A stretch of DNA of 64,000 nt from Prolixibacteraceae bacterium (GTDB lineage: Bacteria > Bacteroidota > Bacteroidia > Bacteroidales > Prolixibacteraceae), in NCBI GenBank assembly GCA_025210775.1, contig JAOARB010000010.1, positions 39,502 through 103,501 on the forward strand. Reading direction: 5' to 3'. The notes beneath the pieces were generated by a model. It did no database searches, was not told the DNA's origin, and was given only the letters and a program-made list of their open reading frames with translations. The position numbers and the translations under genes are program-made. This document shows positions 14,330 to 61,525 of the stretch, piece after piece (the first letter of the stretch is position 1; each line of letters opens with the position of its first letter).

Positions 14330-14332
14330 GCG

Positions 14333-14440: not shown

Positions 14441-14448
14441 CAAATATA
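14441..14448 (-). promoter_or_regulatory. candidate -7 box TATATTTG for tRNA-Gln copy 1
   Basis: Minus strand reads TATATTTG, about 35 nt upstream of the mature 5' end. Confidence 0.4.
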
Positions 14449-14541
14449 AAATCCTTTTTATTATTTTCAAAATTTTTTCTTTAAAAAGTTCCCATTAAAT
14501 GGGATCTAAATAAAAAATCAACAATAAGAAGAACTTTATTG

Positions 14542-14614
14542 TTGACCCACCAGGGCTCGAACCTGGACTCTTCTGAACCAAAATCAGATGTGTTGCCAAT
14601 TACACCATAGGTCA
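14542..14614 (-). tRNA. tRNA-Gln (anticodon TTG), copy 2
   Basis: Same cloverleaf as copy 1. The T stem is CCAGG/CCTGG instead of CCAAG/CTTGG, a compensatory pair change. Confidence 0.9.
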
Positions 14615-17791: not shown

Positions 17792-17826
17792 CCACAAGAA
17801 ACAAGAGAGAGAAAAGAATTAAAAAG

Positions 17827-17865
17827 AAAAACGGCTACCTCATGGAGAGATAGCCGTTTTTGTTT
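17827..17865. terminator. intrinsic terminator between convergent genes
   Basis: Stem AAAACGGCTA/TAGCCGTTTT with a 13-nt loop and a T-run. Confidence 0.5.
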
Positions 17866-17884
17866 CTCGTTAAGAGAAGAAACT

Positions 17885-18802
17885 CTATTTGGCTAATCTA
17901 CGATAGTAAGCGGCCGAATTTTTATTATTTAATCGTGCATATACATTTGAAATATATAGTGCTATTTTTTTCTCTTTCTTAACCTTATAGACAGATTTAA
18001 GCTTGCCTAACGCATAGCGATAGTTCTTACCACTTTGTTTTAACTGCTTTAGAAGCGTTGCGTAGTTCTTTCGTGTCTTGTTTCGGTTATAGGTTGCCAT
18101 CGATCTCTTGTAGTGATCTTCTGCCCTATTATATGCATCTAGCGCCAAAGTACGTTTGGCATCATAATCATTAGGAGAAAGCTTTATTACCTTTTTAGCA
18201 GTGACTATAGCCTCTTTGTCTTTCCCTAGCTTGTTGTTTAAAGTTAAATAGCCTTGTAGTCCCTCTAAAGATTGACGAAAAGAATCGCTTTGCTTACTCC
18301 ATAGAGAATCGGCTTTCTCATATAGCTCGGCTTCGATATTAATCAGAAAATACCTTTCTAACTTTGATTTTGCATATTCTGAATCCGAAGATTTCATTAA
18401 GTCGTTAAGAACCCTCATCTCTTTAGAAAGGTTATCTTCCGACTTATAAAGGTCTGCCAAATTACTTAACATCTCATTGTCATAAGATCCTAAAGAGTAG
18501 GCCATACCGAGATACTTCATCGCCTTATCGCTGTCTTTTAACTGAAAAGCAGACTTACCAGCCATCAAATAAGTTTCGATAGGTACCTCTTTCCCATCCT
18601 TGCCCTGCAAAGCAAGTAAAGCCTCTGCTGCGGAAAGAGATTCGGCATAATTCCCAGCGGTATAGGACGAACTATAACTCTTCTGAAGTCCCTGAATAGG
18701 AGAACATTGTATTAAAGAAAATACCATCATTATGGATACACTCCACAATAAGAATAGTCTATTGTTTATAATGTTTTTCATCGTTTCATTTTTACTTTGC
18801 AT
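17885..18802 (-). CDS. TPR-like lipoprotein, function unknown
   Basis: 305 aa. Signal/lipobox SLIQC. Helical repeats rich in A/L/Y/K (e.g. AMKYLGMAYSLG, LADLYKSEDN). Confidence 0.6.
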   Translation of the reverse strand: MQSKNETMKNIINNRLFLLWSVSIMMVFSLIQCSPIQGLQKSYSSSYTAGNYAESLSAAEALLALQGKDGKEVPIETYLMAGKSAFQLKDSDKAMKYLGMAYSLGSYDNEMLSNLADLYKSEDNLSKEMRVLNDLMKSSDSEYAKSKLERYFLINIEAELYEKADSLWSKQSDSFRQSLEGLQGYLTLNNKLGKDKEAIVTAKKVIKLSPNDYDAKRTLALDAYNRAEDHYKRSMATYNRNKTRKNYATLLKQLKQSGKNYRYALGKLKSVYKVKKEKKIALYISNVYARLNNKNSAAYYRRLAK

Positions 18803-19016
18803 TGTTGCAAATCAACTTAGAAAAATGGGATATACAAAACATTCGTAAAAAGATTATAGAAAAAAAACTCTTTTTGAGATGATTAGACATAGAAGTCGAT
18901 TTTTTAAAACACGTTCATCAATAAATTTTTTTATTTTCGTGGTGGCATAGTTTCCTAATGTTGGAGACACCTAAATCTTTGTATATTAAAATTCCATCAT
19001 ACTTTATTGAAATAAA

Positions 19017-22000: not shown

Positions 22001-22136
22001 GATGGTCATTCAAAATGATATCCGTAGAGCATTATATATACTAAAAGAGATGAGCGATACTTGTGCTAAATACCAAGAAACTCAACTCCAGAAATCGATA
22101 GATACAGTCTTTGAAACGTCAATTCAGAGATTGTAG
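19017..22136 (+). CDS. DUF2723 (TMEM260-like, GT-C-fold) membrane protein, paralog B
   Basis: 1039 aa. SFWDCGEFITTSYKLEVGHPPGAPFF and the same conserved blocks as paralog A along the whole N-terminal two thirds. Confidence 0.85.
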   Translation: MKQYKFYNKIIGWIVFAIAAIVYLMTIEPTASFWDCGEFITTSYKLEVGHPPGAPFFLLLGRFFSIFASDPSKVAMMVNSLSALASAFTILFLFWSITHLAKNLVVGKEETPSLGHMIAIFGSGAVGALAYTFSDTFWFSAVEGEVYATSSLFTAIVFWAILKWENEADDPHSNRWLVFIAYMIGLSIGVHLLNLLAIPAIGLVYYFRKYKPTWKGAIIALIVSTIILGTIMWGIIPGVIKFASWFELFAVNSLGLPFNSGVIIYSILLILGLVYGIHYTTKKEMPWRNLVVVSTTVIIIGYFSYAMIVIRSSANPPMDQNNPNNVFSLLDYLNREQYGDRPLAYGAYYNTPLDENNPYNEAKPSYIQKEGKYKKVKVRQTPNYQSIGCTVFPRMYSSQSAHVKEYKKWANIKGTSITVVGDRGERQRIMKPTFGENLTFFFKYQVNYMYLRYFMWNFSGRQNDIQGHGDVIRGNWISGIPFIDNIRLGDQSQLPKIWKENRGRNQYYMLPFLLGLLGMFFQYNRSKKGKYDFAIVMMLFIMTGLAIVVYLNQTPLQPRERDYAYAGSFYAFAIWIGLGVLGLIDILKRIAPYKVSAIIATLASLILVPGIMASENWDDHDRSNRYTCRSTGYNYLNTCDPNGIIFTNGDNDTFPLWYAQDVEGIRTDMRVCNLSYLQTDWYIDQMKRQAYESKPLPITFTKDQYVLGTNDYCYVYEHPSFKDKRLELRDVIDSFIKSTNKATKLQDNIAFFPTRKLKVTIDKEQVIKSGLVARKDSDKIVPVINIDLKSNIITKDQLILLDMIAHTDWTRPFYFAITVGSDKYLGLQRYFRTEGFAYRLVPLKNENVNSDPEEVSMVNIDKMYHNMMEKFDWGNMQDPKVYLDENNSRMAMNIRNSFIRLAEALLQDSLKMNNSINVGSETPQLDNRMKAIKVLNRCEEVAPSSKITYDYFGLLMAQAYFKANDREAAVRIFKEMLNNYSGQLNFYLQLSKGEKMVIQNDIRRALYILKEMSDTCAKYQETQLQKSIDTVFETSIQRL

Positions 22137-33922: not shown

Positions 33923-34900
33923 TTAAAAGAAATAGCTTGATCTTCTTCGATAAGATCTTCTTCGTTTCTTTGAAGGGATATCGTAACTAATCATAAATTC
34001 GTGAGTACTAGGAAAGCTATTGGTGTCTTCTAGTGCAGTCATATCATATGAGTATCCTAGTCTGATTTCCTCAGTGACATCATACTGCATGCTCATACCG
34101 AAAGAATTCCCTGTTCTATACATGATCCCAGCAGTAAAATTCTCATAGAATGTACCAAATACATGAAGATCAGCCGCTAAGTTGGAGCTTCTAATATAGC
34201 GGATTGTACTTCCTACTTTCATTGTAATATCTCTATCTACTTCAAATTTATAAGCTCCTAAAAGATAGATATGAAGCATATCTTTATTGATAGAGGTACG
34301 AGAAACTTCTTCAACAGAAACTTTATTCTCTATTAACTTAGGTATAGAAAGACCCACAATATAGTCTTTAGCACGAAACATAACTCCTAAACCAATATTA
34401 GGGAGGAATTCTGAATTAAGATCGTTCATAAAAGCAGGATCGTCTTGATTCTCTCCAATTCCTTGGATATTGGCATAAAATAGATTGAATCCTGCAGAGA
34501 TACCAAAGCTCAAATACTTTCCTCTACGAGGATCAATATCCAAATGATAGGCATAGTCTCCATATAGCCCGACCTGCGTAATTGGGCCATAGCTATCATA
34601 AAGCATACGACCACCAATTCCCATTTGTCCATCAAGATAAGGCATGGTAAAAGCAAGAGACGAAGTTGTAGGTGCACCATCAAAACCAGTCCATTGGTGT
34701 CTAGTCAACAACTTAATATTCATTGCTTCTTGTACTCCAACATAGGATGGATTTATGGTAGCCAGATTATTTAAATACTGGCTATACAAAGGATCCTGTT
34801 GGGCTTTTGTTCGAATTGAGAACATGCAGATTAGTAGGAGTATTAGGAACGAAGTGCGTCCTTCTTTCCACATACGATATATCTTATCACAGTGTATCAT
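33923..34900 (-). CDS. T9SS membrane protein PorP/SprF family
   Basis: 325 aa. AQQDPLYSQYLNNLATINPSYVG and FLPNIGLGV are typical of PorP/SprF. It lies directly downstream of a type-B CTD cargo gene. The real start may be MWKEG at 34873. Confidence 0.88.
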   Translation of the reverse strand: MIHCDKIYRMWKEGRTSFLILLLICMFSIRTKAQQDPLYSQYLNNLATINPSYVGVQEAMNIKLLTRHQWTGFDGAPTTSSLAFTMPYLDGQMGIGGRMLYDSYGPITQVGLYGDYAYHLDIDPRRGKYLSFGISAGFNLFYANIQGIGENQDDPAFMNDLNSEFLPNIGLGVMFRAKDYIVGLSIPKLIENKVSVEEVSRTSINKDMLHIYLLGAYKFEVDRDITMKVGSTIRYIRSSNLAADLHVFGTFYENFTAGIMYRTGNSFGMSMQYDVTEEIRLGYSYDMTALEDTNSFPSTHEFMISYDIPSKKRRRSYRRRSSYFF

Positions 34901-34917
34901 CTTTTCTTAGATCAACA

Positions 34918-36333
34918 TTATTTGCTTATGTATATGTACCCTTTCTTAGTTGAATAATTGTCAGTCTTCAAGATATAGTAATAAGTTCCTGAAGGTACAA
35001 CATTCCCTTTACTCATTCCTTCGGTGGCTATTCCATCCCACCATGAAGTCTCGCCATCCAATCCATATCGATTACTCTTGTAAACCAGATCCCCCCATCT
35101 GTTATAGATATGAATTTCAGATTGTTCACAGAATTGAACTGCTTTGACTACAAAGCGATCATTAATACCATCTCCGTTTGGAGAGAACCCACGAACGACT
35201 TGAAGTTCTCCAGCACGTATCATGATGCGGACGTACTCAGTGGAACAATTTCCTTGTAGGTCACAAATTTCATATTCAAACAAATCTTCTCCAATATAAT
35301 TATCCTCTGGTATATATTTTATCAAACCTTTAGAAACCAGTGTTGCGGTACCATGTAACGGTGGAGTTAATACTTTCAATGAAAGAGTATCCATGTCGTT
35401 ATCTAAATCATAGTCGTTAGTCAACACTTTAAAGTCAATAAACAAACGCTCTTTTGTAATACCAATATCTTCTTTGGTAATCGGAGCTGTACCATCTTGT
35501 TCAACCACGTAATCAAGGACATCTACACATCCATTACGGTCCATTACTTTCAATCGATAAGTCCCCGCTTTGCGTACAATCAGTTTAGAAGGATCACTAT
35601 TATCCACATGCCCATAATCTTGAGCATTAGGATCTGTATTACTCCAATAATAAACCAAATGACTTCCCTCACTAGCAATGGCATCAAGTAGTACCCAAGA
35701 ATCAAACTTAATCTTGTTTGGTCCTTTGACGATAGCACGAGGAGCTGGGTCAAAATTGATTATCTTCTCTACCTGCTCAGAAGCACCATACTTATCTGTA
35801 ATCTTTAACCATACTTTGGTAGATTCCGTAGCACTATGTTTTCTAAAAGTAGGTTTTGCAATATATGGATTGTCAAAATGTATCTTTGGTCCCCACTCAT
35901 ACGATAAACGTTCTCCAGTAGAACGTGAACCATCTAACTGTAATGTGGACTTACAACTTCCAATAAAATCTTTTCCTGTTATCTTGGCTTCTAGAACAAT
36001 ACCTACTTTAATCACCATTTTAGTGATCTCTCCAGGGCAGCTATTCTCACCTTGGGCAGGCACAACACTTAATTCATAAGTACCTTCTTGATTAAAAAGG
36101 ATTAATTCTGAAGTGGCAGATTGAGACTTTACAGTATAGCTCATAGGAGCACCTTCCAATGTTTTTATTAACCATTGGTAAGTATACGATGGATCATCAA
36201 TCGATGCTTTAAAACGGTGCACCGACCCTCTATTAATAGTTACATCAGGAGTGATCGATTGACTTCGAACAACCCCTAGTGTAACTACCATAAGGCAGAA
36301 AAAGGTCCATATTTTTATACTAATCAGTCTCAA
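34918..36333 (-). CDS. T9SS type-B sorting-domain protein (gliding-motility-associated C-terminal domain), operon paralog 5
   Basis: 471 aa. The C-terminus GFSPNGDGINDRFVV...IYNRWGDLVY...WWDG...PSGTYYYIL...KGYIYISK matches the type-B CTD. There is an internal cadherin/tandem-95-like segment (TNDYDLDNDMDTL...GTATL). The N-terminal module is shared with the four upstream genes. Confidence 0.88.
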   Translation of the reverse strand: MRLISIKIWTFFCLMVVTLGVVRSQSITPDVTINRGSVHRFKASIDDPSYTYQWLIKTLEGAPMSYTVKSQSATSELILFNQEGTYELSVVPAQGENSCPGEITKMVIKVGIVLEAKITGKDFIGSCKSTLQLDGSRSTGERLSYEWGPKIHFDNPYIAKPTFRKHSATESTKVWLKITDKYGASEQVEKIINFDPAPRAIVKGPNKIKFDSWVLLDAIASEGSHLVYYWSNTDPNAQDYGHVDNSDPSKLIVRKAGTYRLKVMDRNGCVDVLDYVVEQDGTAPITKEDIGITKERLFIDFKVLTNDYDLDNDMDTLSLKVLTPPLHGTATLVSKGLIKYIPEDNYIGEDLFEYEICDLQGNCSTEYVRIMIRAGELQVVRGFSPNGDGINDRFVVKAVQFCEQSEIHIYNRWGDLVYKSNRYGLDGETSWWDGIATEGMSKGNVVPSGTYYYILKTDNYSTKKGYIYISK

Positions 36334-36353
36334 GAATATTATTTTTTAAGAAT

Positions 36354-37082
36354 TTATTCCATTATAATTTTACCAGCACGTGGTCGTTTCTTCTGTAAGA
36401 AGTCAATATTTTTTTGATCTTCTACAATCCTAATAGCCAAACCATTACTTGTCTGTGCATTGACTAAAACAATAGAATAGCGATGGTCCTCATCTAGGTC
36501 ATTAATCTTTAGATTTAGACCCATCGCTTCATCATCTCTGTCTATCATTATATCTTGTACACCCATATCCTTATTGTCTTTAAATACTTGTATCGAAAGA
36601 CGTAAAGGAAAATACCTGTCGTATGTAGATGATTGCTTCTCAATCTCTTTTTCTATCGTCAGATCCAATGGTAAAGGATCTCCAATAGAAGTAGCACAAG
36701 CCTCTTGGTTCGTATTAGCAAAACCTAAAGTCATGTTATTAGGAAGAATCTTCAGTATCAATATTCTAGTATTGGTACAACCTCCTAACTCAGAGTTCAC
36801 TCTCAATACAAAATCACCAGGTTTCTTGAATACACAAGATACAGCTGAAAAGTGAGCAGGGCCCACAAATGCAGCAGCATCATTAGAAGAAGCAAGGGTA
36901 GTCAAACTATAATCGGAATATAACAACCAGTTATAGTTGCTCCCCAACACCTCTTCTACGCTAAAACTATGAATCTCCCCTTCGACTAAGCGATAACTCT
37001 CCTGCCCCATTACAGAGAATGGAGCAAAACAACAACACCACATCAAAAAGAGAAATGCCTTATGTCGGAAAGTTTGAGTCAT
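36354..37082 (-). CDS. secreted two-domain protein, operon paralog 4 (no recognisable CTD)
   Basis: 242 aa. Signal peptide cleaved before Gln (VMG-QES). Shared module IHSFSV...YNWLL...GDFVLRVNSELGGC, with a second Cys 26 residues later. Confidence 0.75.
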   Translation of the reverse strand: MTQTFRHKAFLFLMWCCCFAPFSVMGQESYRLVEGEIHSFSVEEVLGSNYNWLLYSDYSLTTLASSNDAAAFVGPAHFSAVSCVFKKPGDFVLRVNSELGGCTNTRILILKILPNNMTLGFANTNQEACATSIGDPLPLDLTIEKEIEKQSSTYDRYFPLRLSIQVFKDNKDMGVQDIMIDRDDEAMGLNLKINDLDEDHRYSIVLVNAQTSNGLAIRIVEDQKNIDFLQKKRPRAGKIIME

Positions 37083-37113
37083 ATTATAGCTTAATGAGTA
37101 TATAGATTTTTAA

Positions 37114-37941
37114 TTATTCAAATGTAATTCCACTGATTGCGTGACGCTTAACTGTAGCACCATCTTTATCATTCGTATTGTCAGATTCAGCAACTGTTTG
37201 ACCAACGATCTTTTGCGCAGTCAACATAAGTGCTGGCGTAATCTGTGCAACATTGTTTGTAGAGTTATCATACTTCTTAGTATTCTCAACTGTAGCTGTA
37301 AGAAGGATATCTGCTGCATCTCCTGTACCTGTTACAGTATAAGTTTCATCTCCATTGTCAACGATGTTAACACCTGCTTTAGCAGTAGCAAGATTTGCCA
37401 ACCTAACATCTGCAAGAGCTTCTAGACTAACTACAGTAGACCAACCATTTGTAGCTCCAACACCATCAATTGTCAAATTATAACCTACAGAAGCACTACC
37501 ATGGTTATAAACAACGTTTCCGCCTTCGATAGATGGAGTAACTTGGTTTGTATAACAAATTGGATCTTTAGTAACTGCCGCAATCATCATATCAAATGTA
37601 CTTGCAGTAATCGTTACTGGTAAAATACGTAGGTTTTTACATCCACCTATTTCATCTTCTACTTGTACATAGTAAATATCATTAGCATTCAAAGTTGAAG
37701 CCCAGTCAATAGTTACTGTTTTTGTTGCTTCTCCTGCTAATGTTACATCAGCAGCATTTGCATCAACCAATTTTCCAGTACCATCATCAACTTTAACAGA
37801 CCATGAATATGCATGTCCTGGGACTTCAGTCACCTTATATTTATGTTTCGCTCCTGGGAAAGGATTATCCCCTGTTGATTGAGCGTAAGATGCTATGCTA
37901 GCTACTGCTAGCACCATCATACTTAGTAAAATTCTTTTCAT
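37114..37941 (-). CDS. secreted two-domain protein, operon paralog 3 (no recognisable CTD)
   Basis: 275 aa. Signal peptide (YA-QST). Shared module HKYKV...YSWSV...DIYYVQVEDEIGGC, with a second Cys 27 residues later. The second half is T/V/A/G/N-rich. Confidence 0.75.
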   Translation of the reverse strand: MKRILLSMMVLAVASIASYAQSTGDNPFPGAKHKYKVTEVPGHAYSWSVKVDDGTGKLVDANAADVTLAGEATKTVTIDWASTLNANDIYYVQVEDEIGGCKNLRILPVTITASTFDMMIAAVTKDPICYTNQVTPSIEGGNVVYNHGSASVGYNLTIDGVGATNGWSTVVSLEALADVRLANLATAKAGVNIVDNGDETYTVTGTGDAADILLTATVENTKKYDNSTNNVAQITPALMLTAQKIVGQTVAESDNTNDKDGATVKRHAISGITFE

Positions 37942-37960
37942 TATATATAGCTATTTGGTT

Positions 37961-38743
37961 TTATTTAAAAGTAATATCAGAAGTGTTTGGAAGACCTTTG
38001 ATTGTTCCACCAACTTTAGATCCAAGATCGTTAGCTGTTACTACAGTAGTTCCTTCTGTTACAGTAGATGCTGTGACACTAAGCATATTTGTTACATCTA
38101 AATCTATTGGCAAAGCTTTATAAGTAACCGTTACAGTAACTTTATCTCCTGCAACTGCAGTTACAGATGTTCCTGTTAGTGTACCTGTACTCAATGTAAT
38201 TTCAGGAGCAGTAGTATATGCAGCACCTTCAACTGTTGGCTCATTTAATAGATCAAATGCCCAAGTACCTGTTGTTACATTTTCTCTTGTAATATCATAT
38301 GTAAAAATCAAATCTTGAGTATCACCTTGTACATGAACATTTCCAGACTCAGGATTACAACCTAGTGTTGTTGTGTTTGCAACGATTACGTTAAACGTGT
38401 TGCTTGCAAGAGTAATAGGAAGTTCTCTTACAGAAGCACATCCTCCAGCTGTTTCAACAAATCTAAGAGTATAGTCTCCATCAGTTAACCCAGTATAGTC
38501 AATAACAATATTTTGTTTGTCCGTTACTGTTATATTGCTAGAAACATCAGTGTTGTCCGCTTTCTTAAGGGTCCATACTCCTGCGTTAGCAGCATTCTCC
38601 ATGGTAATAGAATAGTTATATTTACCACCAATCATAGGTTTACTACCGTCAGTTAAACTTTGTGCATTAACACCCAAAGCCAGCGTAAAAAGGAATAAAA
38701 TAAATGTTAGCTTCTTCATCATAATTGTTTGTATTTCGATCAA
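37961..38743 (-). CDS. secreted two-domain protein, operon paralog 2 (no recognisable CTD)
   Basis: 260-aa ORF. The likely start is MMKKL at 38722. Signal peptide (VNA-QSL). Shared module YNYSI...GVWTL...GDYTLRFVETAGGC, with a second Cys 26 residues later. Confidence 0.75.
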   Translation of the reverse strand: MIEIQTIMMKKLTFILFLFTLALGVNAQSLTDGSKPMIGGKYNYSITMENAANAGVWTLKKADNTDVSSNITVTDKQNIVIDYTGLTDGDYTLRFVETAGGCASVRELPITLASNTFNVIVANTTTLGCNPESGNVHVQGDTQDLIFTYDITRENVTTGTWAFDLLNEPTVEGAAYTTAPEITLSTGTLTGTSVTAVAGDKVTVTVTYKALPIDLDVTNMLSVTASTVTEGTTVVTANDLGSKVGGTIKGLPNTSDITFK

Positions 38744-38756
38744 CTACTTAAATAAA

Positions 38757-39539
38757 TTAATATCTTATATTACTTGGTCTTGGTGAACGATTAACTGTAA
38801 TATTATATACAGGTATTGATGTTTCAGAACTACTATAACCGTCACTTGCAATGAAATAGACTCTATACACTCCTGGTACCAATTCAGAAGGTGCTTGGTC
38901 AATATCTTTCGCTTCTACAACATCCCCACTCTCATTCACAATCTTATAACTCTTTGTTACTGTATCTCCAGTATCAACATCATTTACATTTACACCTGAA
39001 AAATCAAATACACCTCCAGCATTCCATCTTCCACTTGTCTCATCCGCACATTCATTCCGATCAACAGTGGCAAGACCCCAGAAATATGGTTTGTTGTTTA
39101 ATCTCACATAAATTCTAGAAACCACTCCACTACAATGAGTTGCATTACTTGCATCTACACTTGTTTGTGTAACATCCACAAAACCACTATTTCGATAAGG
39201 ATCTGTACTCCACTTAACACGTACAGTAGATATTCGAGAAGTAGTTAAAGTTTCTGTTTTATGAATCCAACCCGAAGATTCACTTATTCCTCCATCAATA
39301 GTCCATTGAATTCTATCATTCTTATAATCTTCCACGCCAAGATCATAATTAGTCGATGCTTCAATAGAGAACTCTTTTGTTTCTCCTTTGTTACATACTA
39401 AAGGATTTTCTCTTGATCCTAATTGACCAGCAGGCAATGTATTTATGGAGCCAGATGTTTGACCCAAAACAATCCCAGAGAAGCACATCACTCCTCCTAA
39501 TAGAATAGGTCTTATATATTTCATCAATCTGTCTCTCAT
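38757..39539 (-). CDS. secreted two-domain protein, operon paralog 1 (most divergent; no recognisable CTD)
   Basis: 260 aa. Signal peptide (VLG-QTS). KEFSI...IQWTI...GFVDVTQ...THC, with a second Cys 27 residues later. Confidence 0.7.
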   Translation of the reverse strand: MRDRLMKYIRPILLGGVMCFSGIVLGQTSGSINTLPAGQLGSRENPLVCNKGETKEFSIEASTNYDLGVEDYKNDRIQWTIDGGISESSGWIHKTETLTTSRISTVRVKWSTDPYRNSGFVDVTQTSVDASNATHCSGVVSRIYVRLNNKPYFWGLATVDRNECADETSGRWNAGGVFDFSGVNVNDVDTGDTVTKSYKIVNESGDVVEAKDIDQAPSELVPGVYRVYFIASDGYSSSETSIPVYNITVNRSPRPSNIRY

Positions 39540-52366: not shown

Positions 52367-54646
52367 ATGAATAAATTAACATACTTATTAACAATCATAT
52401 TATTTATGATTGAGGGAGCATATGCCCAAAAAACAGTCACAATAAAAGACCATCATACACAGGAATCTATTCCATATGTTGCACTATACAATCCAGAGAA
52501 CCGTCAAGGATTGGTAGCAGACGAAAATGGACAGATCACCTTCCCTGAGAGTGCCATCCATAGCAAGATGCAGCTCTCTTCTATTGGCTACGAATCAAAA
52601 ATGATTCTAGTAAAAGAGGTAATAGACGGAAGCACCATCTATCTGAACCCAACCCATCTAAAGATCGACGAAGTAGTGATCTCTGGAACCTCTCCATCAC
52701 TACAAAAGCAGGAGGTGATGAATGTAGAATACCTAAAGCTTAAAAACAGCGCTTTAAGCAACTCTCTATCTGAAACCATCTCTTCTGTACCAGGAGTACA
52801 ACAAGTAACCACTGGTACAGCCATCGGTAAACCGACCATTCGAGGCCTTTCAGGTACACGAGTAGCCGTATTTACCCATGGGATAAGACTAGAAAACCAA
52901 CAGTGGGGAGCAGAACACGGGCTAGGATTAGATGCCACAGGAATAGAAGGAGCAGAAGTAATCAAAGGTCCAGCCAGTCTTCTATACGGAAGCGATGCAC
53001 TAGGAGGCGTACTCTATCTTGTAGACGATCGTTTTGTACCAAGCAATCAGACCCATATCGAAGTAGGCAACACCTATAATACCAACACCCAAGGCATCGA
53101 CAACTACGGTAAGATCTACTGGAGTAAAGACCGATGGAGCATCAATGTGAGTGGAAGCCATCGCAACCATAAAGATTATAAAGATGGAGATGGGAACATC
53201 ATTACCAACACCCGATTTCACACTACCGATTTCAAATCGAAGGTAGGATATAGAAGCAAATTTTGGAACACAACCCTTTCCTACAACCATCTAGACGAGA
53301 AATATGGCATCAACGAAGATGGCGATATCGGAGGCGACCGTTCACGCTCAATGATGGCTCCATACCAACCGATAAAAACAGACATCCTTAGTAGTGAAAA
53401 CATCTTCTATCTCCCATCCTCAAAAATCAAACTTACCCTAGGCTATATCTCTAACGAAAGAAAAGAGATCGAAGGAGAAGAACACCATCATCACGAAGAA
53501 GGTGATGAGCACCATCATCATGACGAAGGAGAAGTTCATGAAGACGAGGAACACCACGAGGAGGAAGAAGAAGGAGAACATGTAGGATTACAGATGCTAC
53601 TACGCACCTACTCTTATAACGCTCAATGGATCAAAGAATTTGAAAACAACAACCAATGGATCGTAGGTAGCCAAGGCGTATTCAAAAGAAATGAGAACCA
53701 TTCAGACGAACAGCTAATCCCTAATACCGATTCTAGAAATGTAGGACTATTCACCACCTACAACTGGAAACTAACCGATCATGCCAACCTCCTTCTTGGT
53801 GGTAGATACGATCTACAAAACATAAACAGCACCCTAGAAGATGGGACACAAAAAGATAGAGACTATGCAGCCTTCTCTTTCTCTGCAGGACTAAACTGGT
53901 ATTTAACAGAGAAGTTATCCATCAAAACCAATCTATCCTCAGGCTATCGTGCACCGAACATCTATGAGCTAGCAAGTAACGGATCACACCCATCAGCCAA
54001 CAGATACGAGATAGGAAATGAAGAGCTTAAAAAAGAACAAGCCCTTCAGCTAGACATCGCAACAGAATATAGAGGGGAACATTTTGGATGGTATATCAAC
54101 CCATTTATTAACAGAATACAAAACTATATCTATCTATCCCCAACAGGAGAAAAGAAAGAATCGCTAAAAGTCTACCAATACAAACAAAACGATGCTGTGC
54201 TATATGGTGGAGAAGCTGGGATACACTACCATCCCCACCAAATCCATTGGATGCACCTTAACTCAGACCTAAGCATGGTATACAGCCAAGACAATGATGG
54301 CAATGCAATCGCATTAACACCAGCCACTAGAATCTTGACCAAACTATCTTTCGATATTCCAACATCCCCAAAACAACCGTTGCAAATCTTCGGTCAATAC
54401 GACCACTCTTTTGCACAAAACAGGGTAGCGGATTACGAAACCAAAACACCGAGCTATGGACTAGTAAACTTAGGGATCTCTGGAGCCTATCGTTTCTCTA
54501 CTCATTTTGCTATCAACTACGAGTTAAAAGCAAACAACGTGCTAGACAAAACATACGCTTCCCACCTATCTAGATACAAAGACCTTGGCATAAACAACCT
54601 AGGACGCTCTGTAGTATTAGGAATCAATTTCCCTATAGACCTATAA
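52367..54646 (+). CDS. TonB-dependent receptor with His/Glu-rich insert (candidate metal, e.g. zinc, transporter)
   Basis: 759 aa. CarboxypepD_reg-like N-terminus, a plug (VQQVTTGTAIGKPTIRGLSG, GGVLYLV) and a beta-barrel. The insert EGEEHHHHEEGDEHHHHDEGEVHEDEEHHEEEEEGEH is encoded at 53471-53581. Confidence 0.88.
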   Translation: MNKLTYLLTIILFMIEGAYAQKTVTIKDHHTQESIPYVALYNPENRQGLVADENGQITFPESAIHSKMQLSSIGYESKMILVKEVIDGSTIYLNPTHLKIDEVVISGTSPSLQKQEVMNVEYLKLKNSALSNSLSETISSVPGVQQVTTGTAIGKPTIRGLSGTRVAVFTHGIRLENQQWGAEHGLGLDATGIEGAEVIKGPASLLYGSDALGGVLYLVDDRFVPSNQTHIEVGNTYNTNTQGIDNYGKIYWSKDRWSINVSGSHRNHKDYKDGDGNIITNTRFHTTDFKSKVGYRSKFWNTTLSYNHLDEKYGINEDGDIGGDRSRSMMAPYQPIKTDILSSENIFYLPSSKIKLTLGYISNERKEIEGEEHHHHEEGDEHHHHDEGEVHEDEEHHEEEEEGEHVGLQMLLRTYSYNAQWIKEFENNNQWIVGSQGVFKRNENHSDEQLIPNTDSRNVGLFTTYNWKLTDHANLLLGGRYDLQNINSTLEDGTQKDRDYAAFSFSAGLNWYLTEKLSIKTNLSSGYRAPNIYELASNGSHPSANRYEIGNEELKKEQALQLDIATEYRGEHFGWYINPFINRIQNYIYLSPTGEKKESLKVYQYKQNDAVLYGGEAGIHYHPHQIHWMHLNSDLSMVYSQDNDGNAIALTPATRILTKLSFDIPTSPKQPLQIFGQYDHSFAQNRVADYETKTPSYGLVNLGISGAYRFSTHFAINYELKANNVLDKTYASHLSRYKDLGINNLGRSVVLGINFPIDL

Positions 54647-57625: not shown

Positions 57626-57979
57626 GAATAAGAACTATCTATGATGGTATAAACTTCCGCCATCACAAAAAAAGGAAGTATAAAAAATATACAGGCAAAT
57701 AGAGATTTCATAATAGTTAGATTTTGGTTTTAATATTTATGCTACGGGATCGTAAAAACATAAAATGCCTCTTCAAAAAGAAGATATATTAAAATTAGTG
57801 AAAATAAATCAACAAAAGCAAATAACACCCAACAAAAACAACTTAAACAACAGATTATAAGCGCAAAAGAGGCAGCCCTAAAAGGACCACTTCCAAACAA
57901 ACCTAAAAAGATAATTATGTCATCCATATTTGCGGATTCTGTTGAAGCAGTAGATGAAATAATGCAGCTGTGATTCAAA

Positions 57980-58019
57980 CGACAAATAAAAATGGCAGAC
58001 ACATGGATCTGCACCCTAC
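57980..58019 (-). repeat. terminator-like hairpin repeat, copy A
   Basis: Plus strand CGACAAATAAAAATGGCAGACACATGGATCTGCACCCTAC. The minus strand gives GCAGA/TCTGC followed by a T-run. It is a direct repeat of copy B. Confidence 0.6.
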
Positions 58020-58477
58020 GATGGATAAAACACTGATTATTAAATATGTATGCAAATAAAAAAGATCTATGCCCACACTTTTTAATCTGTATTAAATGCC
58101 AATTATAACGCAAACCAAATTTCGAAGGGAAGGGATGATATGGTTTTAATTTTAGATATTGTCTTACTTTCTCAACATACATTGTTTCATTGCATTAAAC
58201 AGTAAGATTCTAGCCAAAAAGTTATTCGTGAAAAGTTATATAAAAATGATATACCTAATTCTCACATAAGAAAACATCTAACATAGTAATCTCTAATTAT
58301 GTGTGTTTTATTTGACTTAAAACTAGATAATCAACAAAAGAGAAGAATTTTATACCAGTTTTTAAATAACATTGACTTAAATCAAAGAATGATTGCTTAG
58401 ATGTTTTTAAGTAAATACCATTGAAATATTTTATTGATTCGACAGATTATTGATTCTTAAGTACGTGTTACAAAACG

Positions 58478-58972
58478 TTAATCTTTACAAGTCCATATGG
58501 TGTCTTTTCTTTCTTTAGGATGACTACAACACCACATATTCGGATTATCTACAGAACGATGATAAGCAAAGAATGCTATACAATCTTTGCTACAATCTCT
58601 ATTCCTTCCAGTTCCATCTCCATATATTTCATGCTTTTTATCCTCTCTGTGATCAATGTAATATTCAGTACAAGCAGTTTTTTCGAAAAACAAAATAAAA
58701 AACAGGTTAACATCTGTATTTTCACATATAATAGAGTCTGTAGCTAAAAAACTTTTTGTATACAAATAGTCATTGATTAGGCTATCAATAATTAATTTAT
58801 TCTTAGGCAGATTATCTATTAAAAGATATTCTCTGAGTATAAATTTAGATAAATCGCCTCTTTGTGAAACTCCAGTCTTACTCTTAATTCTAGACACCTT
58901 AGGTACTTTTTCTTCAGTGAATGTACAGGAAGACAAAATACCTAAAACTAATAGTAATAAAATGTACTTCAT
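58478..58972 (-). CDS. Cys-rich lipoprotein (candidate immunity protein)
   Basis: 164 aa. Lipobox ILSSC and 8 further Cys. Its start is 8 nt after the stop of the 544-aa gene. Very AT-rich. Confidence 0.65.
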   Translation of the reverse strand: MKYILLLLVLGILSSCTFTEEKVPKVSRIKSKTGVSQRGDLSKFILREYLLIDNLPKNKLIIDSLINDYLYTKSFLATDSIICENTDVNLFFILFFEKTACTEYYIDHREDKKHEIYGDGTGRNRDCSKDCIAFFAYHRSVDNPNMWCCSHPKERKDTIWTCKD

Positions 58973-58980
58973 TATTAAAA

Positions 58981-60615
58981 TTATAAACTTTTTAATTCTG
59001 TTAAATTCTCTCTTTTATGATTACGTTCGATTTTTCCTTCATTTATGTTACCCTGAAATTCTTTGGTAAATGTCATTTTAGTTATAAATGGTTTGTAACC
59101 TCTTAGGTGTTGTAATGTAAACCAAGCAGCAAAAGCTTCCTTCGCTATAGGAATTGTATTAGGAATATCTTCAATATCTGTAATATCAAGACCAAAGTGA
59201 TCCCATAAAGTCACTTCATAACTTAGACTATAATTATCTTTGTCAAACTGAATTCCTAACACATACACTTCTGTTGCCCAAATATCATTTAAAGCTATTG
59301 TTTCACCCTTTATAGTATCTAATAACGAACCAAATGTTGGTTTTGCAAACTTGCGTCCTTTAGCAGTTGTTTTCCCTCTATACCCCCTTTCATCATAGTT
59401 CATATCTATTTGCATTTCTATAATCTCTGATAATTTCCCTTTGCTTGTTTTTATTTGTTCGGCAATAAAGTCTTCTAAATTTGAACAATATTCCAAGGTA
59501 GCTTTATGGTTTGCTATATCTTCTGTTAATACAGGATCTTCATAAATACCTCCTTCATTTCGTTTGAATTTGGCAATCATTCGTTTTATATTTCCTTCAA
59601 GATTACCATAGGAGTAACATAATGTAGCCCACTTTTCAAATGATTTAAAAATATTTTCATCACTTGTGTCCCAAAACATTAAATTACCTTCATGATAATC
59701 TTTAATATCATTACCTGATGCCTCAAAAACCCAATTTTTGATTAGCCAAGCTCTGGCATTATATATTCTTTCTTTTGAATATATAGCTTTGGGAAAACTA
59801 GCCTTATCAAACTTAAGAGCAATTTCCATCATTTTTGCATTGTTTTGAATATCAATATCTCTTTGAACATTAGCAAAATAGTCAGACCCCTCTGATGGAA
59901 TTGAATAATTAAAAGGTTTATCAAATGGATTTTCTCTTAAACTTTCAATATTTGCAAAAACAGCATGCTTTTCAATATCAAAACCATTTTCAACATATTC
60001 CTTTTTAAATCGCTCTACAGATTCTAAATTATAAACATTGTCTATGGTTTTATTTGCAACTCCTTTACCATAAGTTAAATCTTCTGCAATATTTGTTCCT
60101 GATCTATTTAGCCCTGGAACTTTAAATCTGTCTACACAGAATGGGAAAGAAACAACTGGTACTTCAATACTAACTTTTTCTACTGGATTCGCTACGTATG
60201 CAAAAATTCTTATTTTTTTTGATTTCTTGGCTTTGTATTTAAAACAAATAACTTTCTCTTCATCTAAATATGGGTTTTCTTTCTTTTTATATTCCAAGTC
60301 AACAATATCTCCATCGTCAATTTTTTCTGCCCACCATATATGTTTTATTGGTTTAAGTGTTGATTTTTGAAATTCAGTAGCCTTAAAAATATACTCTTGT
60401 CCTTCTATCATTTCTTCAACTAGCCTACCATTCTCGTTAAAAGGGCCTTCAATTTTTCTTACCAAAGGTTTTTGTATTTTCAACGAAGCACTTTTACATG
60501 TCTTATCATTCATAGGTTCTCCTTTAATGCTTACCGTAACAGTAAGAGTACCATATTCTTCTTTATTCCTTGGCGGATTTTCTTTTTCTAGCATTTGGAT
60601 TTTATTATCACCCAT
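58981..60615 (-). CDS. 544-aa signal-less protein with a DUF3289-like C-terminal domain (candidate secreted toxin/effector)
   Basis: A long uninterrupted ORF in about 27% GC DNA. The C-terminal block NDIWATEVYVLG...YEVTLWDHFGLDITDIED...AAWFTLQHLRGYKPFITKMTF matches my recollection of DUF3289 (..DTWAT..DHFGLD..WF.LQ..KPF.T.M). This is unverified. Confidence 0.65.
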   Translation of the reverse strand: MGDNKIQMLEKENPPRNKEEYGTLTVTVSIKGEPMNDKTCKSASLKIQKPLVRKIEGPFNENGRLVEEMIEGQEYIFKATEFQKSTLKPIKHIWWAEKIDDGDIVDLEYKKKENPYLDEEKVICFKYKAKKSKKIRIFAYVANPVEKVSIEVPVVSFPFCVDRFKVPGLNRSGTNIAEDLTYGKGVANKTIDNVYNLESVERFKKEYVENGFDIEKHAVFANIESLRENPFDKPFNYSIPSEGSDYFANVQRDIDIQNNAKMMEIALKFDKASFPKAIYSKERIYNARAWLIKNWVFEASGNDIKDYHEGNLMFWDTSDENIFKSFEKWATLCYSYGNLEGNIKRMIAKFKRNEGGIYEDPVLTEDIANHKATLEYCSNLEDFIAEQIKTSKGKLSEIIEMQIDMNYDERGYRGKTTAKGRKFAKPTFGSLLDTIKGETIALNDIWATEVYVLGIQFDKDNYSLSYEVTLWDHFGLDITDIEDIPNTIPIAKEAFAAWFTLQHLRGYKPFITKMTFTKEFQGNINEGKIERNHKRENLTELKSL

Positions 60616-61237
60616 AACTTTATTGTTTTCAATATGATTGTTTAATATTTTGTAACGTTGGTTATATACAATACATCTTAGTAATAGCTAATCGCAGAAA
60701 CAGATACGATATATAAACAAGTGTAGTGTACAGTTTAATCTATACTTTCATCTTTAATGTATTAAAACTTGCATTTGTCAGTTGAATAATCGAATTGATG
60801 TCATATAAAATTTCAAACAAGAAATCACACACAAGTAGAGAATATGAGTAAAACCCATTTCATCGAATAAGATTACACACACTTTACTAAATAAAGAGGT
60901 TAAATAGTAGCAATAGGGACATGACAAATATAATTATATTTCACCTTATCGATTATCAAACATTAACATAATTACACATTTTAATACAAACAAATCTTTT
61001 CTTTAATGCAATAATGTCTCACATAGGGGATTGGAATCCGTTGATACTGTAGATACGATAATGCATCTTTGATGTATTATCGTATCTTTTTAATCAAAAA
61101 TCTTACTCGTCCCTTTTTAATCGGTGTTAAAGCATCATCACGAAATTCCCTAAAACGTATCATAAATGATTGTGATATAGAAATCAAATTCCGATGGGAT
61201 GACATGATTATATTGCCATTATGCAATATTCAATAAA

Positions 61238-61283
61238 TCGACAAAACGAAATAAAAAGGGCAGACACATAGGTCTGCACCCTA
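61238..61283 (-). repeat. terminator-like hairpin repeat, copy B
   Basis: The minus strand reads GTAGGGTGCAGACCTATGTGTCTGCCCTTTTTATTTCG. Stem GGG(T)GCAGAC/GTCTGCCC plus a T-run. Same orientation as copy A. Confidence 0.65.
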
Positions 61284-61400
61284 CTTCACATTGAATCAAC
61301 GTTTTATAACCAAGCCATTTTCTGATGTGGGGATTGTTGAAGCAAAAACACGCTTGTGCTATTTGTGCGGAAATTCGATATGAAAAGGAAGATGTTTTAC

Positions 61401-61525
61401 ATAGGTTAAATAAAGGGTTTGTCCATGGTTCCTCCATGGTTCCTCCATGGTTTGTCCATCGATTTGGGGGTTTTCGATGGAGGAACCATGGACAAACCAT
61501 GGAGGAACCATGAAGGAAGTACCTA
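61401..61525 (-). repeat. CCATGG-phased palindromic interspersed element, copy 3 (inverted relative to copies 1 and 2)
   Basis: The reverse complement has a centre identical to copy 1 (CGAAAACCCCCAAATCG), arms of 3 and 4 units, and both flank motifs. Confidence 0.85.

What the first reader, a model, noticed from the sequence alone, without database searches (positions are those of the whole stretch)
58478..60615. Orphan two-gene module in an AT-rich island: a DUF3289-like 544-aa protein plus a Cys-rich lipoprotein (candidate effector/immunity pair)
The two minus-strand genes are separated by 8 nt. Spot counts on individual 60-nt lines give about 27% GC here, against about 42-45% in nearby housekeeping genes. 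That points to foreign origin.

The 544-aa protein has no signal peptide. Its C-terminal third carries NDIWAT..WDHFGLDITDIED..WFTLQHLRGYKPFITKM. From memory, this resembles the DUF3289 family, whose members I recall being linked to contact-dependent (T6SS-type) toxin loci in proteobacteria.

The partner is a 164-aa lipoprotein with 8 extra Cys. That is the typical look of a periplasmic immunity protein.

No T6SS, Rhs, VgrG or other delivery genes are in the window. The N-terminal 300 residues match nothing I recognise. The module could equally be an uncharacterised two-gene defence system.
Basis: partly seen in the sequence, partly recalled or inferred. Interest (0 to 1): 0.7.

Follow-up and report, generated by a model that had tools for sequence, protein, structure and literature searches.

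The report
Orphan T6SS toxin-immunity gene pair
This is a two-gene bacterial weapon cassette, a cell-wall-targeting toxin plus the lipoprotein that protects its owner, and it belongs to a toxin-immunity family already solved structurally in Bacteroides fragilis, so it is a real but fairly ordinary find.

Summary
Two minus-strand genes, 544 aa and 164 aa, lie 8 nt apart in the lowest-GC stretch of the window.

The pair is a homolog of the Bacteroides fragilis type VI secretion (T6SS) effector-immunity pair BtpeA-BtpiA (PDB 9jdi, 9jg8).
- The toxin domain matches BtpeA at E=6e-58. Its high-confidence model (pLDDT 91) matches the BtpeA C-terminal domain at Foldseek E=5e-26.
- The lipoprotein model's only significant PDB match is BtpiA (E=3e-6).

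Relatives at 71-75% identity in Saccharicrinis are fused to Hcp/TssD. Every close homolog is followed, at the same 8-nt gap where the junction was read, by a homolog of this lipoprotein.

This copy lacks any Hcp or PAAR domain. It carries instead an unannotated ~155-aa beta-sandwich module. That module is shared with toxins bearing M23, CHAP, lysozyme, muramidase, TseH or GH19 domains.

No T6SS genes lie in the window or in 17 kb beyond it. Delivery is therefore inferred, and so is colicin-M-like chemistry, because no sequence similarity to colicin M was found.

Verdict: a new member of a known kind. Interest is about 0.3.

The parts
58981..60615 (-). Effector gene: a 544-aa, 63-kDa protein with no signal peptide, belonging to the DUF3289/BtpeA family of polymorphic toxins.
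   Evidence: The ORF is. Pfam DUF3289 scores 67.9 bits. It matches PDB 9jg8_B/9jdi_A at E=6e-58. The AF2 model has pLDDT 91.4, and Foldseek matches 9jdi_A at E=4.9e-26 with TM 0.72.
60145..60615 (-). N-terminal module, residues 1-157. It is predicted to be beta-sandwich with no Pfam model, and is the putative T6SS loading or linker domain shared among polymorphic toxins.
   Evidence: It recurs at 73% identity on P0056, which has a different C-terminus. Residues 49-155 follow TssD in P0005. A profile search found 69 representative clusters. The accompanying domains are DUF3289, TssD, M23, CHAP, muramidase, lysozyme, TseH and GH19. The model is all-beta across 20-163 with weak Ig/filamin-like fold hits.
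59044..60150 (-). Toxin domain, residues 156-524, homologous to the BtpeA C-terminal domain. The Pfam DUF3289 hit covers residues 322-518 (window 59062-59652).
   Evidence: Residues conserved across the family are D161, R162, D178, N442, D443, W470, D471, H472, F473, G474, L475, D476, D479, Q501, H502, K507 and P508.
58973..58980 (-). 8-nt spacer between the effector stop codon and the immunity start codon. The same spacing is seen in Saccharicrinis orthologs, which implies co-transcription.
   Evidence: The identical 8-nt gap appears in L001, L002, L003 and L004.
58478..58972 (-). Immunity gene: a 164-aa lipoprotein with lipobox LSSC16 and 7 further Cys. It is a distant homolog of BtpiA.
   Evidence: The AF2 model has pLDDT 77. 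Its only significant Foldseek PDB hit is 9jdi_C BtpiA, with E=3.4e-6, probability 1.0 and TM 0.51. The family profile puts BtpiA top among PDB sequences at E=0.015. There are 13 homologs, and all of those located lie directly downstream of DUF3289 genes.
60616..60659 (-). About 40 nt of conserved 5' leader upstream of the effector start codon. It is shared with loci that encode the same N-terminal module.
   Evidence: blastn similarity to L002, L005, L012 and L013 extends to window 60639-60659 and no further.
57984..58019 (-). Terminator-like hairpin (GCAGAyCyATGTGTCTGC followed by a T-run) 460 nt downstream of the immunity gene. It is the left copy of a 36-nt direct repeat and is the probable operon terminator.
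   Evidence: See (0 matches expected by chance).
61249..61284 (-). Right copy of the same 36-nt repeat (92% identical), 634 nt upstream of the effector start codon. The two copies bracket a 3.27-kb segment that holds the module.
   Evidence: See (z = -4.3 for the minus-strand fold). The motif is absent from 14 related loci.

Best explanation
The two genes form an orphan interbacterial toxin-immunity cassette of the BtpeA-BtpiA (DUF3289) family.

**Shown**
- The 544-aa protein is modular. Residues 1-157 form a beta-sandwich module. Residues ~156-524 form a toxin domain homologous in sequence and fold to the C-terminal toxin domain of the B. fragilis T6SS effector BtpeA.
- The downstream gene encodes a lipoprotein. 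Its fold matches BtpiA, the immunity protein co-crystallised with that domain.
- The gene pair is conserved as a unit with an 8-nt spacer. It occupies different chromosomal sites in different Marinilabiliales.
- Close relatives carry the same toxin fused to Hcp/TssD or to PAAR-like DUF4280.

**Inferred**
- The protein is made in the cytoplasm without a signal peptide. It is loaded non-covalently, as a 'cargo' effector, through its N-terminal module onto the spike, tube or an adaptor of a Bacteroidota-type T6SS (T6SS-iii) encoded elsewhere in the genome. It is then fired into the periplasm of neighbouring Gram-negative cells.
- There the DUF3289 domain attacks cell-wall synthesis. Published work on proteobacterial DUF3289 proposes colicin-M-like cleavage of lipid II and shows periplasm-specific toxicity with cell rounding.
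- The membrane-anchored, disulfide-bonded periplasmic lipoprotein binds and blocks toxin arriving from sister cells. It may do so with its invariant, predicted-flexible loop EDKxHEIYGDGxGRNxDCSxDC.
For: - **Toxin homology.** Pfam DUF3289 scores 67.9 bits against a cutoff of 25. The match to BtpeA chains 9jg8_B/9jdi_A is E=6.4e-58 over residues 131-524. The AF2 model has pLDDT 91.4, and its top Foldseek hit is 9jdi_A, 'T6SS effector-immunity complex BtpeA CTD-BtpiA', at E=4.9e-26.
- **Immunity homology.** The lipoprotein model's sole significant PDB hit is 9jdi_C BtpiA, at E=3.4e-6 with probability 1.0. The profile hit to BtpiA ranks first at E=0.015 and shares the DYLY and ISFF motifs.
- **Pairing.** A lipoprotein homolog lies directly downstream in L001 (three tandem copies), L002/L010, L003, L004 and L009. 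Lipobox proteins follow the distant homologs in L007, L011 and L012.
- **T6SS link.** P0005 and the S. fermentans gene are TssD-DUF3289 fusions at 71-75% identity. Other homologs carry PF14107 or PF17642.
- **N-terminal module.** It co-occurs with TssD and with peptidoglycan-degrading toxin domains.
- **Literature.** DUF3289 is toxic in the periplasm and is neutralised by a downstream immunity protein (PMC11148199). An orphan DUF3289 pair in Aeromonas jandaei is a bona fide T6SS effector-immunity pair (PMC12135965). BtpeA is Bfe5 of B. fragilis and is secreted with the adaptor BtapC (PMC13402684, citing Li et al. 2025, PMID 41072405).
- **Secretion signals.** The effector has no signal peptide or transmembrane segment, and the partner has a clear lipobox.
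Against: - No T6SS structural or adaptor gene lies in the 64-kb window or in 17 kb beyond it. The window's genome is not in the species-representative collection, so whether it has a T6SS is unknown.
- This copy has no Hcp or PAAR fusion, so loading is hypothetical. The N-terminal module is not detectable by sequence in BtpeA itself.
- Colicin-M-like chemistry is not supported by anything computed here. hhalign of the family against colicin M gave probability 0.5%. There is no DxYDx5HR motif. Colicin M was not among the top 50 fold hits of the full-length model.
- The immunity assignment rests on 17% identity and TM 0.51, from a model of moderate confidence (pLDDT 77).
Confidence: 0.8

Rival explanations
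1. It is a T6SS-independent, colicin-like bacteriocin. The protein would be released by lysis or in vesicles. Its N-terminal beta-sandwich module would act as a receptor-binding or translocation domain, as in colicin M, and the lipoprotein would be the producer's immunity.
For: The window has no T6SS gene and this copy has no Hcp or PAAR fusion. The published structural analogy is to colicin M (PMC11148199), whose immunity protein Cmi is also a periplasmic, membrane-anchored protein encoded next to the toxin. The neighbouring genes are TonB-dependent receptors.
Against: In paralogs the same N-terminal sub-domain sits directly after TssD/Hcp, which makes sense only for T6SS delivery. The closest characterised homolog, BtpeA, is a T6SS effector. 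No lysis gene is adjacent. There is no sequence similarity to colicin M or to Cmi.
Confidence: 0.08
2. It is a stranded or decaying cassette in a genome that cannot deliver the toxin. It would be kept for the immunity gene as acquired interbacterial defence, or simply be recent horizontal cargo with no current offensive role.
For: The location is orphan and the composition is AT-rich and atypical. The cassette sits at different sites in each genome, and next to integrases, IS elements and group II introns in S. fermentans. The N-terminal Hcp domain present in close relatives is missing here.
Against: The effector ORF is intact, and the window sequence carries every residue conserved in >=90% of the family. 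Its N-terminus is not a truncation. It is a conserved alternative module found at 56-79% identity on other full-length toxins, with a conserved leader. The identical protein is found in several independent metagenome samples.
Confidence: 0.08
3. It is a two-gene anti-phage defence system.
For: Only the generic features fit: a small two-gene island of atypical composition.
Against: Neither protein hits PADLOC. Both proteins have specific homologs in a solved T6SS effector-immunity complex. The lipoprotein faces the periplasm.
Confidence: 0.02

Closest known systems
BtpeA-BtpiA (Bfe5 and its immunity) of Bacteroides fragilis. PDB 9jdi, 9jg8, 9jg9. Li W. et al., Cell Host Microbe 2025, PMID 41072405 (paper not readable here; known through PDB titles and PMC13402684).
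   Same: The toxin domain is homologous in sequence (34% identity, E=6e-58) and in fold (TM 0.72). The downstream immunity protein has the same fold, a similar size (164 aa; the crystallised BtpiA chain is 182 residues) and shared motifs. The gene order is effector then immunity.
   Different: BtpeA has an N-terminal PAAR-like DUF4280 domain, as shown by its near-identical database relative P0095. It lies in the T6SS locus with vgrG and the adaptor BtapC (PMC13402684). The window protein has neither. It carries a different N-terminal module that is not detectable in BtpeA, and it is an orphan. The immunity protein here has a Cys-rich C-terminal half with an invariant EDKxHEIYGDGxGRNxDC loop that does not align to BtpiA.
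TssD(Hcp)-DUF3289 fusion effectors of Saccharicrinis fermentans and S. aurantiacus (uncharacterised; P0005 and the L003 gene).
   Same: They are 71-75% identical from residue ~49 to the end, which includes the 49-155 sub-domain. The same lipoprotein family follows at the same 8-nt gap.
   Different: They have about 260 residues of Hcp/TssD in place of the window protein's first 48 residues, so they are 'specialised' effectors. The window protein would be a 'cargo' effector.
Proteobacterial DUF3289 effectors: T6EC1/DUF943 (PMC11148199) and the orphan Aeromonas jandaei DUF3289 effector-immunity pair (PMC12135965).
   Same: They share the Pfam family. They are toxic in the periplasm, an immunity gene lies immediately downstream, and orphan loci can still be T6SS-dependent.
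   Different: The window protein scores below the cutoff of the proteobacterial subfamily model TIGR03034 (64.9 against 156.45). The immunity proteins are unrelated: DUF943, or a 95-aa protein with three transmembrane helices, against a BtpiA-like lipoprotein here. The secretion system is also a different class, T6SS-i rather than T6SS-iii.
Colicin M and its immunity protein Cmi (lipid II-degrading bacteriocin).
   Same: Structural similarity of DUF3289 to colicin M-type toxins has been proposed (PMC11148199). In both cases the target compartment is the periplasm, and the immunity protein is periplasmic and membrane-anchored.
   Different: No sequence or profile similarity was found. The colicin M catalytic motif is absent. 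There is no Pfam colicin M hit. The delivery route differs.

Membership tests
Pfam PF11692 (DUF3289) | Score above the Pfam gathering threshold of 25 bits. | tested here: met
   The score is 67.9 bits with E=1.4e-18, over residues 322-518 and profile positions 82-268 of 272.
NCBIfam TIGR03034 (YPO3983 family, the proteobacterial DUF3289 subfamily) | Score above the curated cutoff of 156.45 bits. | tested here: not met
   The score is 64.9 bits. The protein is related but lies outside that subfamily.
BtpeA-BtpiA type T6SS effector-immunity pair | The toxin domain is homologous to the BtpeA C-terminal domain. | tested here: met
   phmmer gives E=6.4e-58 to 9jg8_B. Foldseek gives E=4.9e-26, TM 0.72 and 32% identity to 9jdi_A.
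BtpeA-BtpiA type T6SS effector-immunity pair | A BtpiA-like immunity protein is encoded immediately downstream. | tested here: met
   Foldseek gives E=3.4e-6, probability 1.0 and TM 0.51 to 9jdi_C, the only hit below 1e-3. The profile hit to BtpiA ranks first at a marginal E=0.015. The gap is 8 nt.
BtpeA-BtpiA type T6SS effector-immunity pair | An N-terminal PAAR-like (DUF4280) domain on the effector. | tested here: not met
   There is no PF14107 hit at E<=1. tblastn with the P0095 N-terminus finds nothing in the window.
BtpeA-BtpiA type T6SS effector-immunity pair | Location in a T6SS locus with vgrG and the adaptor BtapC/Afe5. | tested here: not met
   There are no T6SS genes in the 64-kb window or in the 17 kb to the right of it. 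The rest of the genome could not be examined.
BtpeA-BtpiA type T6SS effector-immunity pair | T6SS-dependent secretion, toxicity to recipient cells and neutralisation by the immunity protein. | not testable with these tools
   This needs experiments.
Hcp/TssD-fused 'specialised' T6SS-iii effectors | An N-terminal PF17642 TssD domain. | tested here: not met
   There is no TssD hit and no remnant upstream. The paralogs P0005, the L003 gene and P0098 do have it.
Colicin M family (lipid II phosphoesterase) | Sequence or profile similarity to colicin M, and the catalytic motif DxYDx5HR. | tested here: not met
   hhalign gives probability 0.5%. The motif is absent. There is no Pfam colicin M hit.
Colicin M family (lipid II phosphoesterase) | The fold of the colicin M catalytic domain. 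| tested here: inconclusive
   Colicin M is not among the top 50 Foldseek PDB hits of the full-length model. The isolated domain could not be searched. Similarity is reported for another DUF3289 protein in PMC11148199.
DUF943 immunity family (partner of proteobacterial DUF3289) | A Pfam DUF943 hit on the downstream protein. | tested here: not met
   The lipoprotein matches no Pfam family at E<=1.
Known anti-phage defence systems (PADLOC) | A hit to any PADLOC model. | tested here: not met
   Neither protein has a hit at E<=1.

The most novel reading that the evidence does not exclude
The unannotated N-terminal module, especially its ~100-aa beta-sandwich core at residues ~50-155, may be a previously undescribed loading domain for T6SS-iii effectors in Bacteroidota. 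It would be a functional counterpart of the proteobacterial MIX, FIX, RIX, PIX and WHIX markers. On this reading it recruits otherwise unmarked 'cargo' toxins to Hcp, VgrG or an adaptor. It could then be used to find orphan effectors genome-wide in marine Bacteroidota. The evidence so far is as follows. It occurs in 69 clusters at 50% identity. It is found either at the N-terminus or directly after TssD. It is followed by at least eight different toxin domains, mostly cell-wall-degrading.
Probability: 0.35. Interest if true: 0.5.

Novelty: new member of a known kind. Interest (0 to 1): 0.3.

Why it matters
- **Scope of the family.** The finding extends the BtpeA-BtpiA/DUF3289 toxin-immunity family from gut Bacteroides to marine Marinilabiliales (Saccharicrinis-like bacteria).
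- **Interchangeable delivery formats.** The same toxin circulates in three formats: PAAR-fused, Hcp-fused and, here, unfused with a separate N-terminal module. It moves as a bare two-gene cassette of about 2.2 kb.
- **Annotation.** Both genes can now be named. In the source records retrieved here their homologs are labelled only 'DUF3289 family protein', 'Lipoprotein' or 'hypothetical protein'.
- **Most useful by-product.** The recurrent N-terminal module could serve as a search handle for orphan T6SS-iii effectors.
- **Limits.** The finding does not open a new mechanism or resolve an open question.

Tried and rejected
- **PADLOC scan of both proteins.** No hits, so the defence-system reading was dropped.
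- **Colicin M and Cmi.** I verified the colicin M and Cmi sequences from a pColBM-type plasmid and ran hhalign against the two family alignments. There was no similarity. A regex for the colicin M catalytic motif found nothing. The colicin-M chemistry therefore stays a literature inference.
- **Degraded Hcp/TssD or PAAR-like remnant.** I looked upstream of the effector and elsewhere in the window and found none. The short N-terminus is a conserved alternative, not a truncation.
- **Extra or degenerate immunity copies in the window.** None were found.
- **The 36-nt flanking direct repeat as a mobile-element end.** The motif is absent from 14 related loci, and DNA similarity to those loci stops at 58460 and 60659. 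The repeats are therefore local terminator-like hairpins and not part of the shared cassette. Whether they mark the insertion event is unresolved.
- **Word-indexed homolog search with the N-terminal module alone.** It returned only 4 fragments. The exhaustive profile search was needed.
- **The primary BtpeA paper (PMID 41072405).** It is not held in the library. Papers that cite it gave no enzymology.
- **Species-representative genome scan.** It did not contain the window's own genome, so T6SS presence in this organism could not be tested.
- **Rfam and tRNA scans.** They found nothing near the module.
- **T9SS route.** It was considered because PorP/SprF and a CHU_C cargo are in the window. 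It was rejected because the effector has neither a signal peptide nor a T9SS C-terminal domain.
Full report
**1. Observation**

Both start at ATG, and 8 nt (58973-58980) separate them. The quoted C-terminal motifs are present.

The larger protein is 63 kDa and hydrophilic at its N-terminus, with no hydrophobic segment anywhere, so it has no signal peptide or membrane anchor. The smaller one begins MKYILLLLVLGILSSC, a lipoprotein signal with lipobox Cys16.

Two details need correcting.
- **Cys count.** The lipoprotein has 8 Cys in all, which is 7 beyond the lipobox Cys. Six of those 7 are conserved in the family.
- **GC content.** The module is 30.1% GC, not 27%. The window averages 36.2%. The neighbouring genes run from 33.5% (OMP beta-barrel) to 43.4% (GT4 glycosyltransferase).

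The module still lies in the lowest-GC stretch of the window, 2.4 sd below the mean of equally sized sliding windows. GC3 is 0.19-0.22 against 0.25-0.45 elsewhere, and the tetranucleotide distance is raised.

**2. What the large protein is**

Pfam gives DUF3289 (PF11692) at 67.9 bits against a gathering score of 25, covering residues 322-518.

The proteobacterial subfamily model TIGR03034 matches only below its cutoff. PADLOC has nothing.

Against PDB sequences the protein matches 'DUF3289 family protein' chains 9jg8_B/9jg9 (608 aa) and 9jdi_A at E=6.4e-58, across residues 131-524.

An AlphaFold2 model built on 69 homologs is confident (mean pLDDT 91.4, pTM 0.86). Its only significant Foldseek hit in the PDB is 9jdi_A, titled 'type VI secretion system effector-immunity complex BtpeA CTD-BtpiA from Bacteroides fragilis'. 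The scores are E=4.9e-26, TM 0.72 on the target, and 32% identity.

The remaining weak hits are Ig/filamin-like beta-sandwiches. They correspond to the all-beta N-terminal 160 residues of the model.

**3. What the small protein is**

It has no Pfam or NCBIfam family and only 13 sequence homologs, all Saccharicrinis-like.

Its model has moderate confidence (pLDDT 77). That model has exactly one PDB match below E=1e-3: 9jdi_C, the immunity protein BtpiA, with E=3.4e-6, probability 1.00, TM 0.51 and 17% identity.

A profile of the 14 family members also ranks BtpiA first among 177,635 PDB sequences, though marginally (E=0.015). It aligns the shared motifs DYLY...ISFF.KT.

The C-terminal half carries five of the six conserved Cys and an invariant stretch, EDKxHEIYGDGxGRNxDCSxDC. 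This half has no counterpart in the BtpiA alignment. It includes the only low-confidence loop of the model, residues 111-122.

**4. Comparative genomics**

*Taxonomic spread and fusions.* The top 120 homologs that carry source names are all from Bacteroidota: Saccharicrinis, Labilibaculum, Rapidithrix, Flavobacterium, Chryseobacterium, Tenacibaculum, Chitinophaga and Culturomica. Several carry an N-terminal TssD/Hcp domain (PF17642) or PAAR-like DUF4280 (PF14107).
- P0005 of S. aurantiacus (773 aa) is TssD followed by a region 75% identical to window residues 49-538.
- The S. fermentans gene (759 aa) has the same layout.
- P0095, essentially BtpeA, is DUF4280 plus DUF3289.

*Pairing.* In every locus holding a homolog of >=68% identity, the next gene is a homolog of the window lipoprotein. 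These loci are L001, L002/L010, L003, L004 and L009. The gap is the same 8 nt wherever gene coordinates were read (L001-L004). L001 has three tandem copies.

More distant homologs are followed by lipobox proteins of 138-212 aa with no detectable sequence similarity. They come from a Flavobacteriaceae MAG, Labilibaculum and Culturomica.

In every locus examined, one does.

*Mobility.* The cassette sits at a different chromosomal site in each genome.
- In S. aurantiacus it lies next to CstA and glycoside hydrolases.
- In a second contig (L001) it lies between an HU gene and an oxidoreductase gene.
- In S. fermentans it lies among integrases, IS91 and group II introns.

DNA similarity to all these loci is confined to window 58460-60659. 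That is the two genes plus about 40 nt of leader and about 15 nt of trailer. The unit that moves is thus a bare cassette of about 2.2 kb. This fits the atypical composition.

**5. The N-terminal module**

Residues 1-155 recur at 73% identity on P0056, a 404-aa protein with an unrelated C-terminus. They recur at 63-79% on further proteins from Labilibaculum and from metagenomes.

An exhaustive profile search of 1.84 billion representatives found 69 clusters. About a dozen carry the whole module at the N-terminus. The others carry only the ~50-155 core. In these it follows a different ~57-residue leader, or an N-terminal domain of ~125-135 residues, or one of ~155-265 residues.

Pfam scans of 60 of these proteins gave the following:

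| Domain | Proteins |
|---|---|
| DUF3289 | 22 |
| TssD | 7 |
| Peptidase_M23 | 2 |
| CHAP | 2 |
| Peptidase_M91 | 2 |
| Muramidase | 1 |
| Phage_lysozyme | 1 |
| TseH | 1 |
| GH19 | 1 |
| PG_binding_1 | 1 |
| DUF4347 | 1 |
| GIY-YIG | 1 |

The proteins that share only the module are each followed by a different small membrane protein or lipoprotein.

This is the signature of a polymorphic-toxin delivery or linker module attached mostly to periplasm-acting, cell-wall-directed toxins. It is often placed just after Hcp.

The module is not detectable by sequence in BtpeA-like or Culturomica proteins. There is no degraded TssD or PAAR remnant in the window. The short N-terminus is therefore a conserved alternative architecture, not a truncation.

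**6. Mechanism**

*Shown.*
- There is homology to both chains of a solved T6SS effector-immunity complex.
- The operon pairing is obligate.
- Close relatives are Hcp and PAAR fusions.
- The effector has no secretion signal, and the partner is a lipoprotein.

*From the literature.*
- A proteobacterial DUF3289 domain is toxic only in the periplasm, causes cell rounding, is neutralised by the downstream gene product, and resembles colicin M structurally (PMC11148199).
- An orphan DUF3289 pair in Aeromonas jandaei is secreted and kills in a T6SS-dependent way (PMC12135965).
- BtpeA (Bfe5) is exported with the adaptor BtapC and the effector BtaeB, and its deletion abolishes T6SS function (PMC13402684, citing PMID 41072405).

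*Inferred.*
- The window protein is a cargo effector, loaded through its N-terminal module onto a T6SS-iii encoded elsewhere.
- It damages cell-wall synthesis in the recipient's periplasm.
- The disulfide-bonded lipoprotein blocks it in kin cells.

*Candidate catalytic residues.* These come from family conservation: D161/R162, D178, N442/D443, the W470-D-H-F-G-L-D476..D479 stretch, and Q501/H502.

*Not supported by my own tests.* Colicin M chemistry has no support from any computation here.
- The profile comparison with colicin M is null (probability 0.5%).
- The comparison of the lipoprotein family with Cmi is also null.
- There is no DxYDx5HR motif.
- Colicin M is not among the top fold hits of the full-length model.

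**7. Context**

The window is ordinary Bacteroidota chromosome. It contains:
- housekeeping genes (asd, hflX-type GTPase, purD, cysS);
- TonB-dependent receptors;
- a MacB/HlyD/OEP efflux set;
- TMEM260-like glycosyltransferases;
- T9SS PorP/SprF with a CHU_C cargo.

It has no T6SS component. Identical copies of the effector, and of the adjacent GT4 protein, occur on JGI metagenome contigs. These extend the context 17 kb to the right (surface-polysaccharide genes, FtsX, BacA, TruB, QueA), again without T6SS genes.

The window's genome is not among 185,579 species representatives. The nearest is S. aurantiacus at 83% identity.

**8. Flanks**

A 36-nt direct repeat, 92% identical with none expected by chance, brackets the module at 57984-58019 and 61249-61284. 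Each copy is a minus-strand hairpin followed by a T-run, which is terminator-like.
- The left copy is a plausible operon terminator, 460 nt past the immunity gene.
- The right copy lies upstream of the effector and has no minus-strand gene to terminate.

The motif is absent from related loci. It may mark the local insertion event or be a local repeat. This is unresolved.

**9. Verdict**

However, the system belongs to a family with published genetics and crystal structures, so it is a new member of a known kind.

The differences are the unfused, orphan 'cargo' format, the unannotated N-terminal module, and the Cys-rich variant of the immunity protein. They are worth recording but would not surprise a specialist. 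Interest is 0.3.

Noticed in passing
window 57984-58019 and 61249-61284: A 36-nt direct repeat (92% identical, 0 expected by chance) brackets the module. Each copy is a terminator-like hairpin on the minus strand. The motif occurs only twice in the 64 kb and not in 14 related loci. It could be a scar of the insertion event.
   Followed up: partly
window 61416-61518: A large near-perfect palindrome (39-nt arms, 90% complementary) is built from 11-nt units TCCATGGTTCC / GGAACCATGGA. It lies in the intergenic region upstream of the GT4 glycosyltransferase gene. It produces several spurious overlapping ORFs, and its function is unknown.
   Followed up: partly
window 61051-61087 (+): A hairpin with a 17-bp stem followed by a T-run, terminator-like, lies in the long non-coding gap between the effector and the GT4 gene. 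No plus-strand gene lies immediately upstream of it.
   Followed up: no
window 57742-58182 (-): A 146-aa ORF is called as a gene on the JGI contigs. It has no Pfam hit and it contains the left terminator-like repeat, so it is probably not a real gene.
   Followed up: partly
window 52367-54646 (+): A TonB-dependent receptor carries a striking His/Glu-rich insert (EEHHHHEEGDEHHHHDEGEVHEDEEHHEEEEEGEH). This suggests a metal-binding loop.
   Followed up: no
window 33923-39539 (-): A T9SS PorP/SprF gene lies next to a CHU_C-tailed cadherin/Ig cargo gene. Four consecutive ORFs of 242-275 aa follow, none with a Pfam match.
   Followed up: no
window 14332-14614 (-) and 14756-22136 (+): There are two tandem tRNA-Gln(TTG) genes and two large TMEM260-like O-mannosyltransferase genes (1011 and 1039 aa).
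   Followed up: no
L001 12331-13940: In one Saccharicrinis-like genome (GCA_947489045.1, contig CANLCN010000017.1) the TssD-DUF3289 effector is followed by three tandem paralogs of the immunity lipoprotein (55-58% identical to the window's). The effector-immunity junction sequence is repeated between the copies, so this is an immunity array.
   Followed up: partly
L003 3789-16660: In S. fermentans the TssD-DUF3289/immunity pair lies among tyrosine integrases, an IS91-family transposase, rve-family transposase fragments and two group II intron reverse transcriptases. It is a mobile-element hotspot.
   Followed up: no
L013 5870-8222: Labilibaculum filiforme encodes a 447-aa protein with the same N-terminal module (79% identical) and an unrelated C-terminus. 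It is followed by a 144-aa multi-pass membrane protein and by a 197-aa protein that looks CHAP-like by eye (not scanned against any profile library). This is probably another effector-immunity set that uses the same module.
   Followed up: partly
window lipoprotein residues 109-131 (window 58580-58648): The immunity family has an unusually invariant segment, EDKxHEIYGDGxGRNxDCSxDC, across members only 42-90% identical overall. It coincides with the only low-confidence loop of the model. It is a candidate toxin-inserting loop, and it is not alignable to BtpiA.
   Followed up: partly
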